Shown piece after piece: positions 13,285 through 22,249 of a DNA stretch of 41,715 nucleotides; positions within the stretch are counted from its first letter, which is position 1; every line of letters starts with the position of its first letter. The position numbers and the translations under genes were made by a program. The notes below the pieces were generated by a model, which was given only the letters and a program-made list of their open reading frames with translations, made no database searches and was not told where the DNA came from. Source of the stretch: Candidatus Heimdallarchaeota archaeon (lineage in GTDB: Archaea > Asgardarchaeota > Heimdallarchaeia > Hodarchaeales > Hodarchaeaceae). The stretch lies in NCBI GenBank assembly GCA_019057635.1, contig DXJL01000005.1, positions 1 through 41,715 on the forward strand, given 5' to 3'.

Positions 13285-13390
13285 TGGGCCTGGGGGGATT
13301 TGAACCCACGAACCATCCGGTTATGAGCCGGACGCTCTAACCATTTCAGAGGGTTATGACGTTATAAGCCCTAAACTGAGCTACAGGCCC
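13285..13390 (-). tRNA. tRNA with CAT anticodon (probably Ile2, otherwise elongator Met) with a D-loop intron
   Basis: GGGCCTG/CAGGCCC acceptor, TCCGG-CTCATAA-CCGGA anticodon arm; 30-nt intron at 13344-13373 with TCAG/CTGA BHB helix. Confidence 0.9.
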
Positions 13391-17773: not shown

Positions 17774-18148
17774 TTAATCGGGTATGACTGTAGGAGCATA
17801 GGATTGGCCATCAAGACGTATGTAATTTCTGAAAGTTTTTCCCCGACCGCCCTGAAAATAAACAAGGGCTCCATTGGGAGACAATCTTGGAATTTTTTTA
17901 GCATTTTTATGTGAGGGAAATATTTCTTCATGATTGGATGTATTTTGAGAGGAAGGAGGATTAACTAGTCCGTCTAAAGCGTCGTTAAACGTATTATAGT
18001 TGTCTTCATTAGGATAAAGAGGAATCATGAAGTTAGAGATAAAAACTCTTTTTGCACTAGGAACTCTATAATTTAAAGCTTCGATGACATTAAAATAAAT
18101 GTCTGAAAATGGGGTAGGAGTAAATTCACACCTGCTGAAAGATTGCAT
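17774..18148 (-). CDS. Hypothetical protein
   Basis: 124-aa ORF filling the rpoL to tRNA-Ser gap; no recognised motif. Confidence 0.4.
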   Translation of the reverse strand: MQSFSRCEFTPTPFSDIYFNVIEALNYRVPSAKRVFISNFMIPLYPNEDNYNTFNDALDGLVNPPSSQNTSNHEEIFPSHKNAKKIPRLSPNGALVYFQGGRGKTFRNYIRLDGQSYAPTVIPD

Positions 18149-18200: not shown

Positions 18201-18316
18201 GTCGGGATATCCAAGCCTGGTAATCAGCCATGAGAACCATACTGGACCAGAATGGAGCCAGCCTGCTAAGTTGGTGTTCTCTGAACTCGGGGGTTCAAAT
18301 CCCCCTCCCGACGCCA
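18201..18316 (+). tRNA. tRNA-Ser(GCT) with a 21/22 intron and encoded CCA
   Basis: GTCGGGA/TCCCGAC acceptor + GCCA; CCAGC-CTGCTAA-GTTGG; long variable arm; 30-nt intron at 18223-18252 with CTGG/CCAG helix. Confidence 0.92.
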
Positions 18317-18497
18317 ATTTTTTTCTTATTCTTGAATACATTCGGTTATAATTGTTTTCTAACTGTAGTACGTGAAGTTTGTTTCTCCATATTCAATTTT
18401 AAAGATGATTTATTGATTTCATTGCCATAACATTGAAGATCAGAATTCTCAGCAGATAGTGTAATTCAGGAAAAACAAAAATCATCTAGGGTTATTA

Positions 18498-18522
18498 TTG
18501 AAACTATCGAGAATAGTTTCAA
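18498..18522. repeat. Perfect 10-bp inverted repeat
   Basis: TTGAAACTAT-CGAGA-ATAGTTTCAA. Confidence 0.6.
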
Positions 18523-18610
18523 GAATTCTGAAACTTATGGAAAATATGAGCATCCTGGGGAACAAATGAAAATTCCACCAATTTGTGTAATAACTAGATA
18601 AAAGAGGGAG

Positions 18611-18714
18611 GGCCGGTGCGGGGAATCGAACCCCGACATGGTGGGCCACAACCACCGATTATAGTGATCTAGATACCAGAATAGGGATCTCTATCAAGAC
18701 TACCATTATCCTAC
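18611..18714 (-). pseudogene. 5'-truncated tRNA-His(GTG) copy (positions 7-73) with a 39-nt intron at 24/25
   Basis: GTAGGATAATGGTAGTC[18697-18659]TCGGTGGTTGTGGCCCACC...GCACCGGCC; clean BHB (GTAG/CTAT helix, TC|T and AA|T bulges); upstream CTAAATC cannot pair with the acceptor 3' strand. Confidence 0.85.
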
Positions 18715-18754
18715 GATTTAGTGAGCTTATAAAGAGAAGTAAAGGTTAGTCTAT

Positions 18755-21349
18755 ATGAATCATTATTCGCAAATATTCAAAACAAATCGGGCTTTAAATA
18801 AGGTTAATAAACCTAAAGAGGCAGCTGAGGAAGAAGAAATCGAAACTGCCAATCTGATGCATGTTAAGAACAGTATTGGATCTTTTCAAAGAAGTTTACC
18901 CTTAATCATCCTTGAAAAAAGGTCTAATTCTCTAATGAATAAATACTTTGGCGAATTCAATATAGAACATACAGTTACGGCTTCTATTAAAGGTAATGAA
19001 ACTTTAGCAAAGACTATTATTTTATATAAGGAAAGTAAAGGATCCACTTTCATTTATGATAGTTTTGGAAGAATTAGAGATTATTCGCAGCTTAAGGAAT
19101 CCTATTCAAACTCAAATCGATTGTTGAATATTCTTCATACCTCAATTTCTGAAGGTAATAAATCGATTCGATTAACAAAATTATATTTTAATTTCAAAAA
19201 AAATCTTGTAAAAAACAATTTTTCCAATTTGACAACAAATTTCAAAATTAACGAACGTAAATCATTAGTTGGATGGATATCTGTTACCTCAAACAGTATG
19301 GATATTATCACAGATATGGATAACTGTCTTGGAATAATAGAATTATTAAAAGAGAAAAGAAGATTCAATGAAATTACCTGGAACATATTGAAAGAGTTCA
19401 TTTTTCTAAAAATATTGAGAATTTTCTTTGGAAGGTGCGAAATTGATAATTTTGATGCATTTTTAAGAATTCTATTTGATTTATTGAGTAATCACAAAAA
19501 AAGAATCTCTCTCACTGTTTCGATTCTGTATAACGATCTTCTGTTTGTCATCGATAGAATTACAATTTCAAAAATAAATAAACTTAAGGATTTAGAGGGC
19601 ATAATTAACAACTTTGAATATGAGTGTATGGTTGATGCTTTATCCACTAATTCTAAGATAACAAGGTACTCTTTTGAAGAGATTTCCATAAAAAATAATA
19701 ATTTTGACACCATTTTCAAAATATTGAGGCAGTTTGAATCTTCTAAACTATTCTTAATGGCATTTAAGTATTCAGTAGATATTCAGCTATTAATTGTGAA
19801 GGGGAAATTAGCACTCACTTTCACTTATAAAGAATCCAATTTGCTTCGCAAGTATTTAAATCGGTTTTTCCACCCCTTAGGAATTACAATAAAACAAAAA
19901 AAGGGGGTTAATTTTCACAAGGTTTCCACTAGATATAGTAGAAGTTTAGGAATTAAAATAAACAAAATTAAAAATGTGAATCAGTTCTCGATTTTAATAA
20001 ATCTTAGGAAGCTTGGAAAACATAAAATTGAGCTTCTCGATCTAATCGTCAAACACTGTATCATTTACCAATTATATAACATAGGCGTTTCTCCAAGACA
20101 AATTAGGTTTCTTACTCATAGTGATAGAATATATCACGAATTAAAAGAAATTTCTGGGGGAAAAGAAAAGAGCAAGCAATTCCATAAGGATATTATCAAT
20201 TTCTTTATTGATTTTAACAAAGTTCTAATTAATAATATACATATTGATTCAAAAAGCATAAACTCAATTAATTGGAACTCGTGTATCAGAAACCAAGTTA
20301 AGAACCTTAATGAATTATTGGTTAATTCATTAAAATCTGAAATCTCTACAAATTACCAGCTTAGTTTACTCGATAGCAAGATCAAGGCATTAATTCAGTT
20401 TGGTGACTCTCCATTAAAGAGAATTAATAACCTAGAAATGAACGAAAATAGTTTAAAAAGTGTTAATGATGAAAATAAAGGAGCTACTCTATTATTTAAA
20501 AACTATATAATGAATTCGGAGGATAATCCTCTTTCCAAAGTTCTAAATATTGAAGGAAGTGCTGATGAGTACATTATCACTGATAAATATTCGGTTGCTA
20601 ACTGTGGAACCAAGAGTTATTGGTTTGGTGCTCCTGATATTTTAATAATTGATCGAAAATTAAAGAGGACTGTTGCTTTTATCCATCTCAAAGGAAAAAC
20701 ATTGGAAAAAAAAAGATTCACCCCACAAGGTATTATTTATCAGATCTTAGACTTAAAAGTGCTAGAGCAACTTTCAAACCTTAAGATTGCTTATGTGTTT
20801 ATCAGAGATTATTCAAATGATATAAAAAACCCTAGAATTCTATATCAATGGTATATAATAACTCAGCAATCAACTCAGTTCATAAGAAATCAATCTTGTA
20901 CTGATAAAGAAAAATGGAACTTGAAAAATTCTTCATTTGACAATCTCTTTCATGATATGATATTGAATAGAATTTTTCGCAGCAAAACACTCTCGAGGGG
21001 TTTCTACAGCAAGTGTGGGAAAACTACAACCAAGAATAAAAAAAATTTCACTCCAAATGAGATTGAACTATTTATTTCTGAAAAAGCCTCTGAAATTCAG
21101 CAAAAAATACTGCTTGCAACTCAGCTACTCGAAAAACATTTTAATATAAGTAGTAGCTATTTACAAAGAATAATTAGGAGTAAATATGAGAATTTTGTAT
21201 CCAATACAATTAATAACTTAGCACGGAATATTACTTCTGAGAGAAGCTTAGGACCTTACAAAACACAATCTATTTGGGAACAAACAATCCTAGATGCTTC
21301 CTTAACAAAATTTTATAACGGATATAAAGTCATAAATACAGTAGATTGA
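18755..21349 (+). CDS. 864-aa K/N/I-rich orphan protein with a C-terminal PD-(D/E)XK-like nuclease motif
   Basis: FGAPDILIID...AFIHLKG...IIYQI at ~20620-20750; composition differs from neighbouring genes. Confidence 0.65.
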   Translation: MNHYSQIFKTNRALNKVNKPKEAAEEEEIETANLMHVKNSIGSFQRSLPLIILEKRSNSLMNKYFGEFNIEHTVTASIKGNETLAKTIILYKESKGSTFIYDSFGRIRDYSQLKESYSNSNRLLNILHTSISEGNKSIRLTKLYFNFKKNLVKNNFSNLTTNFKINERKSLVGWISVTSNSMDIITDMDNCLGIIELLKEKRRFNEITWNILKEFIFLKILRIFFGRCEIDNFDAFLRILFDLLSNHKKRISLTVSILYNDLLFVIDRITISKINKLKDLEGIINNFEYECMVDALSTNSKITRYSFEEISIKNNNFDTIFKILRQFESSKLFLMAFKYSVDIQLLIVKGKLALTFTYKESNLLRKYLNRFFHPLGITIKQKKGVNFHKVSTRYSRSLGIKINKIKNVNQFSILINLRKLGKHKIELLDLIVKHCIIYQLYNIGVSPRQIRFLTHSDRIYHELKEISGGKEKSKQFHKDIINFFIDFNKVLINNIHIDSKSINSINWNSCIRNQVKNLNELLVNSLKSEISTNYQLSLLDSKIKALIQFGDSPLKRINNLEMNENSLKSVNDENKGATLLFKNYIMNSEDNPLSKVLNIEGSADEYIITDKYSVANCGTKSYWFGAPDILIIDRKLKRTVAFIHLKGKTLEKKRFTPQGIIYQILDLKVLEQLSNLKIAYVFIRDYSNDIKNPRILYQWYIITQQSTQFIRNQSCTDKEKWNLKNSSFDNLFHDMILNRIFRSKTLSRGFYSKCGKTTTKNKKNFTPNEIELFISEKASEIQQKILLATQLLEKHFNISSSYLQRIIRSKYENFVSNTINNLARNITSERSLGPYKTQSIWEQTILDASLTKFYNGYKVINTVD

Positions 21350-21466
21350 TTTATTCATTTTAGGATTGATGAGCAAGATTGAAAAATCTTACGTTAGCAA
21401 ACACCAATCTTATGAAATATCAGATAACGATTTAAGTTAATAAAAATCGTCACACTTTATAGCAAT

Positions 21467-21567
21467 GGCCGATGTAGGATAAATATGAGCAGATATTTGC
21501 TCGTAGACTATTGGTAGTCTCGGTGGTTGTGGCCCACCATGTCGGGGTTCGATTCCCCGCATCGGCC
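21467..21567 (+). tRNA. tRNA-His(GTG) with encoded G-1 and a 29-nt D-loop intron
   Basis: G-GCCGATG/CATCGGC-C acceptor; GGTGG-TTGTGGC-CCACC; intron at 21483-21511 defined by comparison with the left copy. Confidence 0.9.
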
Positions 21568-21700
21568 CTCACTTTCTAACAGTTTACCATTAAATTCATC
21601 CAATTTAATGCTTTTTTGGATAAAACACTTTAAGCATGATAAGTTTTAATTAGTATAGAACTATTATTCTTTATGGAGATTTATTTTAGGAAATATCCCT

Positions 21701-22249
21701 ATGACAAAAGGAAAACAAACACCCACTTCATTAGCGCTTGGCTGTATTCATGTTATTACGGGTGATGGGAAAGGAAAAACCACTTCTGCGTTAGGTCTTG
21801 CGCTAAGAGCAGCGGGTCACGACCTTAAGACCTTAATGATTCAATTTATGAAAAAAGGATGGGATTATGGAGAATTGAGAGCGGTTAAATTCTTCCCAAA
21901 TATCCAGATTATCCAGTACGGCACTCCTGATTTTGTGAACAAATCTAACCCCCTCCCTATCGATTTTCAGGAAGCTCAAGCAGCTCTGGCGCACTTTAAA
22001 AAGGAATTGAGTAATAATTGGGATATTATCATATTAGATGAGATTAACGTGGCACTTGACTATCACTTGATTTCTGAGCAGGAGGTTCTTGATCTTCTCG
22101 AGAGAAAACCTAAAAATCTTGAGGTCATATTAACTGGTAGATATGCCAGTCAAGCCATAATTGACTTAGCTGATTATTATACAACAATACAATCTGTTAA
22201 ACATCCGTATCAAAATAACATTAATGCCCGAAAAGGTGTAGAATTTTGA
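21701..22249 (+). CDS. cobO: Cob(I)alamin adenosyltransferase (CobO/BtuR)
   Basis: TGDGKGKTTSALGLALRAAG, QFMK, ILDEINVA, ILTGR, KHPY...ARKGVEF. Confidence 0.93.
   Translation: MTKGKQTPTSLALGCIHVITGDGKGKTTSALGLALRAAGHDLKTLMIQFMKKGWDYGELRAVKFFPNIQIIQYGTPDFVNKSNPLPIDFQEAQAALAHFKKELSNNWDIIILDEINVALDYHLISEQEVLDLLERKPKNLEVILTGRYASQAIIDLADYYTTIQSVKHPYQNNINARKGVEF

What the first reader, a model, noticed from the sequence alone, without database searches (positions are those of the whole stretch)
18611..21567. Two near-identical tRNA-His copies with different introns at different positions
The shared exon sequence (positions 7-73) differs at one base, C68 vs T68. The left copy has a 39-nt intron at 24/25 and an uninterrupted D-loop. 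The right copy has an unrelated 29-nt intron at 15/16 and an uninterrupted 24/25 junction. A simple DNA duplication cannot give this. It requires independent intron gain/loss, a spliced-RNA intermediate, or import from another lineage. This fits the known hypothesis that tRNA introns block element integration or cleavage.
Basis: partly seen in the sequence, partly recalled or inferred. Interest (0 to 1): 0.75.

Follow-up and report, generated by a model that had tools for sequence, protein, structure and literature searches.

The report
Intact tRNA-His plus truncated inverted remnant
An Asgard archaeon carries one working tRNA-His gene and, 2.7 kb away on the other strand, a dead 5'-truncated remnant of a second tRNA-His allele with a different intron, which captures tRNA gene and intron turnover at a rearrangement hot spot.

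Summary
The 65 shared exon bases (positions 7-73) differ only at position 68. The right copy has a 29-nt intron at 15/16. The left copy has an unrelated 39-nt intron at 24/25.

The left copy lacks positions -1 to 6, so it is not a gene. The two copies are inverted. A single low-GC orphan gene, ORF864, lies between them.

The nearest relative, G002 (flanks 96% identical), has an intact tRNA-His exactly where the left remnant sits. It is identical over all 104 bases, intron included, while the adjacent spacer is only 82% identical. So the truncation is recent. The right copy matches the gene of G004 and G020 in exons, intron site, promoter and position.

Among the 18 of 21 congeners where a tRNA-His was found, 6 have no intron, 8 have only the D-loop intron, 2 have only the 24/25 intron and 2 have both. 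Both introns are therefore old and native to the genus.

Best reading: a recent DNA replacement at a hypervariable tRNA-His island cut off the resident allele and left a second allele as the only working gene. Split tRNA, an integrase att remnant and assembly chimera are disfavoured. The idea that introns block integration is not supported here. Moderately interesting; a new example of a known kind.

The parts
21467..21567 (+). Intact tRNA-His(GUG) gene with encoded G-1, discriminator C73 and no encoded CCA. It is the only complete His gene found in the assembly.
   Evidence: ARAGORN calls tRNA-His(gtg) after script removal of the intron. Only two GUG anticodon-arm plus T-arm sites exist in the 3.19-Mb assembly.
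21483..21511 (+). 29-nt intron in the D-loop (15/16) with a relaxed bulge-helix-bulge motif. The inner helix is 21484-21491 paired with 21498-21505. The central helix pairs positions 10-13 with intron bases -6 to -3 and has one A.A mismatch in this genome.
   Evidence: The same site and the same 29-nt length occur in 11 genes of the genus. Seven of 8 inner-helix pairs show changes on both sides, with 85.6% of cells paired against 74.2% in shuffles, and 0 of 500 shuffles as high. The local fold is -10.7 kcal/mol, z -3.6.
21421..21466 (+). Upstream block of the right copy with an AT-rich TATA-like stretch about 20-30 nt before G-1. It is conserved with G004 and G020.
   Evidence: Three-way alignment. 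The promoter role is inferred.
18611..18714 (-). 5'-truncated tRNA-His remnant covering positions 7-73. It lacks G-1, positions 1-6 and its promoter.
   Evidence: No tRNA is called even after intron removal. G002 has the full gene at the same place, and identity stops exactly between positions 6 and 7. The remnant is 104/104 identical to G002.
18659..18697 (-). 39-nt intron at 24/25 with a well-formed bulge-helix-bulge motif: central helix GUAG/CUAU, 3-nt bulges and inner helix UGAU/AUCA.
   Evidence: The centroid fold shows the motif. Intron termini are invariant in 4 distinct sequences and 96.9% of cells are paired.
18714..18715 (.). Breakpoint where homology with G002 ends, between tRNA positions 7 and 6.
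   Evidence: Pairwise alignment. It lies inside one 2924-nt contig of run X1.
18755..21349 (+). ORF864, a low-GC (28.8%) orphan gene between the two copies. A TATA-like TTATAAA lies at 18727-18733, 28 nt before the ATG. The C-terminal part carries a conserved APD...(H/Q)LKG motif.
   Evidence: No Pfam or PADLOC family. One full-length homologue at 39% identity among 1.84 billion representatives. The motif is conserved in 6 sequences. Structure models were too poor to use.
18201..18317 (+). tRNA-Ser(GCU) with an insertion in the D region and an encoded CCA. It is the conserved left anchor of the locus.
   Evidence: ARAGORN calls tRNA-Ser(gct) after script deletion of about 25-37 nt. It is present in G002, G018, G004 and G020.
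18318..18610 (.). Spacer between tRNA-Ser and the remnant, shared with G002 but only 81.8% identical.
   Evidence: 242 of 296 aligned columns are identical.
21701..22249 (+). cobA (corrinoid adenosyltransferase), the conserved right anchor of the locus.
   Evidence: Pfam PF02572, E 6e-61. It neighbours tRNA-His in 16 of 16 congener loci that reach it.

Best explanation
Shown. The window holds one working tRNA-His(GUG) gene (right, 21467-21567, +) whose pre-tRNA carries a 29-nt archaeal-type intron in the D-loop. It also holds an inverted, dead remnant (left, 18611-18714, -) of a different tRNA-His allele that carries a 39-nt intron at 24/25. The remnant is the orthologue of the intact gene that the closest relative, G002, has at exactly this place. 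It has lost G-1, positions 1-6 and its promoter. Both intron configurations are old and native to this Asgard genus (relatives are titled Heimdall-/Hodarchaeota). Genes with both introns, with one, with the other or with none all exist among congeners.

Inferred. The two alleles derive from a two-intron gene, as still seen in G008 and G013, by loss of one intron or the other. Recently, a DNA replacement at this hypervariable spot between tRNA-Ser and cobA cut the resident allele between positions 6 and 7. The incoming DNA carried the low-GC orphan ORF864. I favour that it also carried the adjoining right-hand allele, taken from an unsampled congener of the G004/G020 type. The genome now depends on the right copy. 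The remnant cannot be charged and should decay.

The pre-tRNA of the right copy is presumably spliced by the genome's splicing endonuclease, for which two tRNA_int_endo genes are present.

I put about 0.9 on the core: remnant plus sole working gene, old intron polymorphism and recent truncation. I put about 0.5 on the specific origin by lateral allele replacement.
For: Truncation. Identity with G002 runs through the 3' flank, 3' exon, intron and D-arm, then stops between positions 6 and 7. ARAGORN finds no tRNA in the spliced left copy but finds tRNA-His in the spliced right copy.

Recency. The remnant is 104/104 identical to G002. The spacer next to it is 242/296 (81.8%) and the working tRNA-Ser is 112/118.

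Orthology of the right copy. Its exons are identical to those of G004 and G020. It shares their intron site and length, a conserved upstream block of about 45 nt, and the same order and orientation before cobA.

Intron states. Of 21 congeners searched, 18 gave a His gene: 6 without an intron, 8 with the D-loop intron only, 2 with the 24/25 intron only and 2 with both.

Introns are real. The D-loop inner helix covaries. The 24/25 motif is conserved. There are two PF01974 genes on contig C82.

Hot spot. The locus differs in G002 (an IS plus a split orphan gene), G018 (an 819-aa orphan), G008 (a 601-aa orphan) and the window. His orientation relative to cobA is divergent in 14 of 16 loci and tandem in 2 (G004, G021).

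Sole gene. Only two His-like sites occur in the assembly.

Assembly. One 2924-nt contig of run X1 spans 18638-21561 at depth 11, and the flanking contigs are at 10.5 and 10.1. A 332-nt contig from another study (X4) joins the end of ORF864 to the right copy with no differences.
Against: No donor was found. The flanks of the right copy are only moderately similar to G004 and G020, and the intron differs at 6 of 29 bases from G004. Any donor is therefore unsampled, and vertical descent of the right copy is not excluded.

The MCM tree weakly pairs G018 with G004 (80/52). If that is true, the replacement scenario needs extra events.

The left junction shows no target duplication or other mechanistic signature.

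Zero differences in 104 nt could also mean the remnant is still under selection rather than young.

Only run X1, which may be the source of the assembly, was shown to bridge the breakpoint. The listed pieces of X2 and X3 start at 18741 and 18727.

The central helix of the D-loop intron has an A.A mismatch in this genome, so splicing relies on a relaxed motif.

The assembly is 91.6% complete, so another His gene could be missing.
Confidence: 0.5

Rival explanations
1. Old inverted duplication with reciprocal loss. The ancestor of the G000/G002/G018/G004/G020 clade had two head-to-head tRNA-His genes. Each lost a different intron. Descendants kept one or the other. In this genome, insertion of the ORF864 cassette between them recently clipped the left one.
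For: Both alleles sit at positions shared with congeners. The left copy is placed as in G002 and G018, the right copy as in G004 and G020. The right copy is about as diverged from G004 and G020 as the rest of the genome, as vertical descent predicts. DNA unique to this genome against both kinds of relative is just 18715 to about 21420, the ORF864 cassette. This scenario needs only one event in this lineage.
Against: It needs several independent losses: the right copy in G002 and in G018, and the left copy in G004/G020. In G018 the His-cobA adjacency looks like that of the outgroups. No sampled genome has two intact copies: all 18 congeners with a match show one gene, and the two G019 hits are identical sequences at contig ends.
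Confidence: 0.3
2. Remnant of integrase-mediated integration. The left copy is an att site left by a virus or plasmid that integrated into tRNA-His, as with SSV1 or pNOB8-type elements and as proposed for the Caldiarchaeum tRNA-Thr locus.
For: The partial copy covers the 3' part of the tRNA plus a few flanking bases, and it borders foreign-looking low-GC DNA. The published analogue has a tRNA fragment, a 1.8-kb insert and a full tRNA with an extra intron at 24/25 (PMC3293823; abstract, Results part 1 and Discussion part 1 read).
Against: The repeats are inverted, not direct. ORF864 is the only long ORF of the genome-specific segment (the other ORFs of 60 aa or more there are short antisense ones) and has no integrase or other Pfam or PADLOC family. 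The remnant's intron and 3' flank are chromosomal, identical to G002. The full copy is itself at a chromosomal position shared with G004 and G020.
Confidence: 0.1
3. Split tRNA. The left copy is a working 3' part that is trans-spliced to a separately encoded 5' piece.
For: It is perfectly conserved with G002, intron included. Split tRNA genes are known in other archaea (PMC3218864; abstract from a search listing only).
Against: Of 98 GCCGGT sites in the assembly, the best run complementary to the leader is 8 nt and is not preceded by G-1. The only minus-strand GGCCGGT in the window lies inside a 677-aa coding ORF. A bulge-helix-bulge junction at 6/7 would need positions 1-4 (GCCG) to pair with the leader bases UAAA, which they cannot (read from the sequence). 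G002 has the same sequence as an ordinary contiguous gene.
Confidence: 0.03
4. Assembly artefact. Two strains, each with one allele, were joined into one contig.
For: The genome is a 214-contig metagenome bin with 3.2% contamination. The 41-nt exact inverted repeat breaks the short-word contigs at both copies.
Against: The breakpoint at 18714/18715 is not at the repeat. It lies inside a single 2924-nt contig of run X1 that runs from the left copy's anticodon arm through ORF864 into the right copy, up to and including T68. Depths are even, 10.1 to 11. C68 stays with the tRNA-Ser flank and T68 with the cobA flank. A contig from an independent study joins ORF864 to the right copy.
Confidence: 0.04

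Closest known systems
Heterogeneous tRNA-Thr(GGU) locus of Caldiarchaeum subterraneum (Sugahara et al. 2012, PMC3293823)
   Same: A tRNA fragment and a full tRNA gene of the same identity lie about 2 kb apart around inserted DNA. The two differ in intron content, including an intron at 24/25. Closely related genomes show the undisrupted state. There too the case was read as tRNA gene disruption and intron change happening quickly within a lineage.
   Different: There the fragment is a 5' piece in direct orientation, and the insert encodes a putative recombinase and is repeated in the genome. Here the fragment is a 3' piece (positions 7-73) in inverted orientation. The insert is a single orphan gene with no recombinase signature. 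Both introns are demonstrably old in the genus rather than brought in by the insert.
Non-canonical bulge-helix-bulge tRNA introns of archaea, including the intron-rich Asgard tRNA genes (PMC11291895; preprint 10.64898/2026.10.13.758758)
   Same: These are short introns at non-anticodon sites, many in the D-arm, that standard finders miss. They sit at predicted splicing motifs and are gained and lost repeatedly.
   Different: [quoted passage not shown] This case is a single-gene, within-genus series with all four presence/absence states, plus two alleles in one genome. I could not see their supplementary tables, which may list tRNA-His positions.
tRNA-derived att sites of integrated archaeal viruses and plasmids (SSV1 and pNOB8 types, as summarised in PMC3293823)
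   Same: A partial tRNA copy that includes the 3' end lies next to foreign-looking DNA.
   Different: There is no direct repeat and no integrase, and the partial copy is the chromosomal allele itself.
Split and permuted tRNA genes (Nanoarchaeum, Caldivirga; PMC3218864)
   Same: A tRNA piece stands alone in the genome.
   Different: No partner piece was found and no junction motif can form. The sister genome has the same sequence as a normal gene.

Membership tests
Archaeal endonuclease-spliced (BHB) tRNA intron: right copy, 15/16 | Removing the intron restores a canonical cloverleaf | tested here: met
   ARAGORN calls tRNA-His(gtg), 72 nt, after script removal of 21483-21511 and calls nothing before removal.
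Archaeal endonuclease-spliced (BHB) tRNA intron: right copy, 15/16 | A 4-bp central helix flanked by two 3-nt bulges at the splice sites, with flanking helices | tested here: inconclusive
   The geometry fits: positions 10-13 pair with intron bases -6 to -3, the bulges are AA|A and AU|U, and the inner helix is 8 bp. In this genome the central helix is G.U, G-C, A.A, U.G. It is perfect in G008 and G013. Across 11 genes, 77% of central-helix cells and 90% of inner-helix cells pair. The minimum-energy fold prefers a slightly different pairing.
Archaeal endonuclease-spliced (BHB) tRNA intron: right copy, 15/16 | The same site is conserved in orthologues, with compensatory change in the intron helix | tested here: met
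   Eleven genes have a 29-nt insert at the same site. Seven of 8 inner-helix pairs change on both sides, and 0 of 500 shuffles reach the observed score.
Archaeal endonuclease-spliced (BHB) tRNA intron: left copy, 24/25 | A 4-bp central helix flanked by two 3-nt bulges at the splice sites | tested here: met
   The central helix is GUAG/CUAU, the bulges are UC|U and AA|U, and the inner helix is UGAU/AUCA in the centroid fold. In 4 distinct sequences 96.9% of cells pair. The pairs are mostly invariant, so there is no covariation statistic.
Archaeal endonuclease-spliced (BHB) tRNA intron | A splicing endonuclease able to cut non-canonical sites is encoded | tested here: inconclusive
   There are two PF01974 (tRNA_int_endo) ORFs, of 201 and 240 aa, on contig C82. 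Two subunits would fit the heteromeric type that the abstract of PMC5829648 says can cut non-canonical introns, but subunit type and specificity were not tested.
Archaeal endonuclease-spliced (BHB) tRNA intron | Splicing is observed in RNA | not testable with these tools
   No RNA run holding this sequence was found; 0 of 17 listed runs are on record as RNA.
Functional tRNA gene: left copy | A complete acceptor stem and G-1 | tested here: not met
   Positions -1 to 6 are absent. No 5' strand occurs on the minus strand of the window outside a coding ORF.
Integrase att remnant | Direct repeat of the tRNA part at both ends of the inserted element | tested here: not met
   The only repeat of the tRNA is inverted. 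No further copy exists in the assembly.
Integrase att remnant | An integrase or recombinase gene in the element | tested here: not met
   ORF864 has no Pfam or PADLOC family. The genome-specific segment holds no other long ORF; the remaining ORFs of 60 aa or more there are short antisense ones.
Split tRNA | A partner piece exists with a trailer complementary to the leader, and a splice motif forms at the junction | tested here: not met
   The best complementary run is 8 nt among 98 candidate sites. The junction motif cannot form (sequence).
PD-(D/E)xK nuclease fold: ORF864 C-terminal part | Conserved catalytic motif and the alpha-beta-beta-beta-alpha-beta core | tested here: inconclusive
   APD and (H/Q)xK are invariant or nearly so in 6 sequences. 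The predicted secondary-structure order fits, but pLDDT is 46.6. Foldseek's best E-value is 0.095, with several restriction enzymes among the weak rows. No PDB sequence match is meaningful.

The most novel reading that the evidence does not exclude
The remnant is not junk. A promoter-less 3' tRNA-His piece, still carrying a spliceable intron, may be kept under selection next to ORF864, an orphan with a nuclease-like motif. It is 104/104 identical to the sister genome while the adjoining spacer is 82% identical. It could act as a tRNA-like RNA or decoy tied to ORF864. Or it could act as the second arm of an inverted-repeat pair that lets the ORF864 cassette flip.
Probability: 0.06. Interest if true: 0.75.

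Novelty: new member of a known kind. Interest (0 to 1): 0.42.

Why it matters
How the many tRNA introns of Asgard archaea arrive, move and disappear is stated to be open in the newest survey (preprint 10.64898/2026.10.13.758758; abstract and section 2.5 read). This locus is a compact natural series for that question. One gene in one genus shows all four combinations of two introns. One genome was caught with two alleles side by side, one of them freshly disabled. The locus shows that intron content can change in a genome by turnover of whole tRNA gene alleles at a rearrangement-prone site, without any intron moving. It also shows that a tRNA fragment can be made without an integrase. On the practical side, neither His copy nor the tRNA-Ser was called by ARAGORN or by Rfam's gathering threshold, and the tRNA-Met was called by Rfam only. 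Routine annotation would therefore report this genome as lacking tRNA-His.

Tried and rejected
Function of ORF864. Pfam and PADLOC gave nothing. The word-indexed search of 5.8 billion proteins returned only the protein itself. The full HMMER search gave one 39% homologue and one 130-aa fragment. The JGI metagenome scan found 592 pattern matches but no relative. Searching 83 genomes of the class found only weak C-terminal matches in 4 congeners. Searching 400 genomes of the phylum found none at E 1e-30. AlphaFold models had pLDDT 34.1 (full length, 3 sequences) and 46.6 (C-terminal part, 6 sequences). Foldseek had no match at E 0.001 or better. A PDB profile search gave nothing meaningful. The ESM Atlas best score was 0.76, which is uninformative. 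ORF864 shows no similarity to the orphan genes at the same spot in G018 and G008.\n\nHistory of the locus. Aligning the regions upstream of cobA across G000, G002, G018, G004, G010, G017 and G009 showed no usable homology to decide between old duplication and lateral replacement.\n\nSplit tRNA. RNA duplex scoring of 2899 loose candidates gave only chance-like results.\n\nCover in runs X2-X4. The listed pieces do not bridge 18714/18715, and 26 further pieces were not shown. I draw no conclusion from that.\n\nG003, G007 and G015 gave no His match with this query. G015 has none within 1.5 kb of cobA. Supplementary tables of the papers are closed.\n\n


Full report
WHAT IS THERE. ARAGORN finds no tRNA in the window. 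Rfam's gathering threshold finds only a tRNA-Met with a 37-nt insert. The two tRNA-His-like stretches are nevertheless real. An inverted repeat of 54 nt at 96% joins 18605-18658 to 21520-21573. An 18-nt T-arm word occurs twice against 0.00 expected.

The right copy (+) runs from G-1 at 21467 to C73 at 21567 and has a 29-nt insert at 21483-21511. With the insert removed in a script, ARAGORN calls tRNA-His(gtg), 72 nt, with a standard cloverleaf.

The left copy (-) consists of 18611-18658, a 39-nt insert at 18659-18697, and 18698-18714.

The left copy stops at G7, and upstream the sequence is unrelated to a tRNA. The spliced left copy is not called as a tRNA. The only minus-strand GGCCGGT in the window lies inside a 677-aa coding ORF. 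The copies face each other with their 5' ends. Between them lies one ORF, 18755-21349 (+), 864 aa, at 28.8% GC against 36.3% for the window.

ORGANISM AND SETTING. The flanking genes are core genes: proteasome-activating ATPase, RNA polymerase subunit L, corrinoid adenosyltransferase (cobA) and methylmalonyl-CoA mutase. Relatives found with cobA are titled Candidatus Heimdallarchaeota, Hodarchaeota, Hermodarchaeota or Promethearchaeota MAGs, so this is an Asgard archaeon. The runs that hold the sequence are labelled marine sediment and cold seep metagenomes. The window is the whole of contig C10 of a 3.19-Mb, 214-contig bin that is 91.6% complete.

COMPARISON WITH CONGENERS. Of 21 genomes of the genus, 18 gave a tRNA-His match. 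G003, G007 and G015 did not. Reading the genes gives these states:
- No intron: 6 genomes (G001, G006, G009, G016, G019, G021).
- D-loop intron only: 8 genomes (G004, G005, G010, G011, G012, G014, G017, G020).
- 24/25 intron only: 2 genomes (G002, G018).
- Both introns in one gene: 2 genomes (G008, G013; the G013 gene runs off its contig after the anticodon arm).

The two insertions are at different sites, and both are native to the genus.

All 11 D-loop introns are 29 nt long. Their inner helix covaries: 7 of 8 pairs change on both sides, 85.6% of cells pair against 74.2% in shuffles, 0 of 500 shuffles are as high, and slid controls give 35-40%. The central 4-bp helix pairs tRNA positions 10-13 with intron bases -6 to -3. 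It is perfect in G008 and G013 but has an A.A mismatch in the window, G004 and G020, so the motif here is relaxed. The 24/25 intron has a textbook bulge-helix-bulge: GUAG/CUAU, 3-nt bulges and UGAU/AUCA. Its termini are invariant in 4 distinct sequences. The genome encodes two tRNA_int_endo proteins.

WHICH COPY IS WHICH. G002 is the closest relative, with flanks 96% identical over 9.4 kb and 6.3 kb. At the place of the left copy it has a complete tRNA-His(-) with the same 39-nt intron. Identity with the window continues from the 3' flank through the exon, intron and D-arm, and ends precisely between positions 6 and 7, at window 18714/18715. The remnant is 104/104 identical to G002. The neighbouring spacer is 242/296 (81.8%) and the working tRNA-Ser is 112/118. 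A dead sequence would not stay identical for long, so the truncation is recent, unless the remnant is still selected.

The right copy has exons identical to the genes of G004 and G020. It shares their intron site, a conserved upstream block (21421-21466), and the same order of tRNA-His then cobA on one strand. So the left copy is the resident allele of the G000/G002 lineage. The right copy is the allele otherwise seen in G004 and G020.

A HOT SPOT. Across 17 congener loci, tRNA-His neighbours cobA in all 16 that reach it. Orientation is divergent in 14 and tandem in 2 (G004, G021). G020's contig ends before cobA but shows the same tRNA-Ser then His order as G004.

The DNA next to tRNA-His differs from genome to genome:
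- G002 has a DDE transposase and a split copy of an orphan gene.
- G008 has that same orphan gene intact (601 aa).
- G018 has an unrelated 819-aa orphan on the other side of tRNA-His.
- The window has ORF864.

ORF864 has no family. It has one 39% homologue in 1.84 billion representatives and a C-terminal domain shared weakly with other large proteins of the genus. That domain carries a conserved APD...(H/Q)LKG motif reminiscent of PD-(D/E)xK nucleases, but the models were too poor to test this.

ASSEMBLY. In run X1, which may be the source, one 2924-nt contig covers 18638-21561. That span contains the breakpoint, ORF864 and the right copy up to T68, at depth 11. The flanking contigs are at 10.5 and 10.1 and carry C68 with the tRNA-Ser side and T68 with the cobA side. 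A 332-nt contig from a different study (X4, 21250-21581, no differences) joins ORF864 to the right copy. X2 and X3 hold ORF864 pieces at near identity. The breakpoint is not at the repeat, so a repeat-induced chimera does not explain it. Independent bridging of the breakpoint itself was not shown.

ALTERNATIVES TESTED. Split tRNA: among 98 GCCGGT sites in the assembly, none has a trailer complementary to the leader beyond 8 nt. A splice motif at 6/7 cannot form, because positions 1-4 (GCCG) would have to pair with UAAA. Integrase remnant: the repeats are inverted, and there is no recombinase in the genome-specific segment. Only these two GUG anticodon-arm plus T-arm sites exist in the assembly, so the right copy is the only candidate for a working gene. 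The caveats are that the bin is incomplete and that a gene with an intron inside the scanned part would be missed.

HOW IT MOST LIKELY CAME ABOUT. This part is inferred. A two-intron gene, as in G008 and G013, gave rise to two derived alleles by loss of one intron or the other. On the MCM tree, G000 and G002 form a pair (100/99) inside a 100/100 clade with G018 and G004. The pairing of G018 with G004 is weak (80/52), and the backbone is unresolved.

The scenario with the fewest events has three parts:
- The left type arose once in the line leading to G018, G002 and G000.
- The right type arose, with an inversion, in the line leading to G004 and G020.
- The G000 line recently took up a block carrying ORF864 and a right-type allele from an unsampled congener. 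That block replaced everything from position 6 of the resident gene to about the start of cobA. Homology with G002 resumes near 21686-21701.

The main rival is an old head-to-head duplication with reciprocal losses, in which only the ORF864 cassette (18715 to about 21420) is new. I could not decide between these two. The flanks of the right copy are no closer to G004 or G020 than the genome average, and the cobA upstream regions are not alignable.

RELATION TO WHAT IS KNOWN. The closest published case is the Caldiarchaeum tRNA-Thr locus. There a 5' fragment and a full gene with an extra 24/25 intron flank a 1.8-kb insert with a putative recombinase, and the authors propose integration followed by recombination (PMC3293823; abstract, Results part 1 and Discussion part 1 read). 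The present case differs in orientation, in which end survives, in lacking a recombinase, and in both introns being old.

Asgard tRNA genes are reported as unusually intron-rich, with many non-canonical and D-arm introns missed by annotation (PMC11291895, passages read; preprint 10.64898/2026.10.13.758758, abstract, section 2.5 and passages read). [quoted passage not shown] The statement that only heteromeric and epsilon-type endonucleases cut non-canonical introns is from the abstract of PMC5829648, seen in a search listing. The hypothesis that introns protect tRNA genes from integration is cited within PMC3293823. I did not read its original source. A search listed only papers citing it.

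VERDICT. It is one working gene plus a young truncated remnant of another allele, at a rearrangement-prone tRNA island in an Asgard genome. The intron difference reflects old polymorphism in the genus, not a recent intron event. The protection-from-integration idea gains nothing here.

Noticed in passing
window 18201-18317 (+): A tRNA-Ser(GCU) with an insertion of about 25-37 nt in the D region and an encoded CCA. ARAGORN and Rfam's gathering threshold both miss it. It differs from G002 at 6 of 118 aligned columns, mostly inside the insert. Exact intron borders were not determined.
   Followed up: partly
window 13285-13390 (-): A tRNA-Met(CAU) with a 37-nt insert in the D-loop (Rfam, 53.8 bits). 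Together with tRNA-Ser and the two His copies, this makes four tRNA-like genes in the window that all have D-arm-region inserts.
   Followed up: no
window 20432-21154 (ORF864 residues 560-800); L067, L068, L069, L038: A C-terminal domain with invariant A-P-D and K-G and a conserved (H/Q)-x-K is shared with four other large proteins of the genus (open frames of 631 to 1521 aa). It resembles a PD-(D/E)xK nuclease motif. Foldseek's weak, non-significant rows include several restriction enzymes.
   Followed up: partly
L030 10281-13466 (G002); L033 10242-12047 (G008); L031 5268-9637 (G018): The same tRNA-His spot holds other cargo in congeners. G002 has a DDE transposase plus a 290-aa and a 341-aa ORF that together match the 601-aa orphan of G008. 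G018 has an 819-aa orphan, with a 323-aa ORF nearby whose sequence looks like a cytosine-5 DNA methyltransferase (not tested).
   Followed up: partly
window 21501-21520 versus 18697-18716: The 3' end of the D-loop intron plus the following exon repeats the sequence of the real D-arm 5' strand at 85% over 20 nt. In the minimum-energy fold of the pre-tRNA, this intron piece forms a substitute D-arm with the exon. In several congeners the intron's 3' end also resembles the 5' exon end. This hints at an origin by local duplication, which was not tested.
   Followed up: no
window 17781-18146: A 124-aa ORF region is missing in G002, where 365 bp are replaced by about 75 bp. It is present at 52-61% protein identity in G018, G004 and G020. 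This is another indel beside the tRNA cluster.
   Followed up: no
L016, L017, L018, L014, L021, L023 (congener tRNA-His genes): Several congeners have a U6.U67 mismatch in the tRNA-His acceptor stem. The two alleles in the window differ by a compensated pair, A5-U68 against G5-C68. After a flip between the inverted repeats, the hybrid gene would carry an A.C mismatch.
   Followed up: no
window 18727-18741: The TATA-like word in front of ORF864, together with the bases after it, recurs as 12-15-nt matches on several other contigs of the genome (for example C1 and C86). It may be a common promoter word.
   Followed up: no
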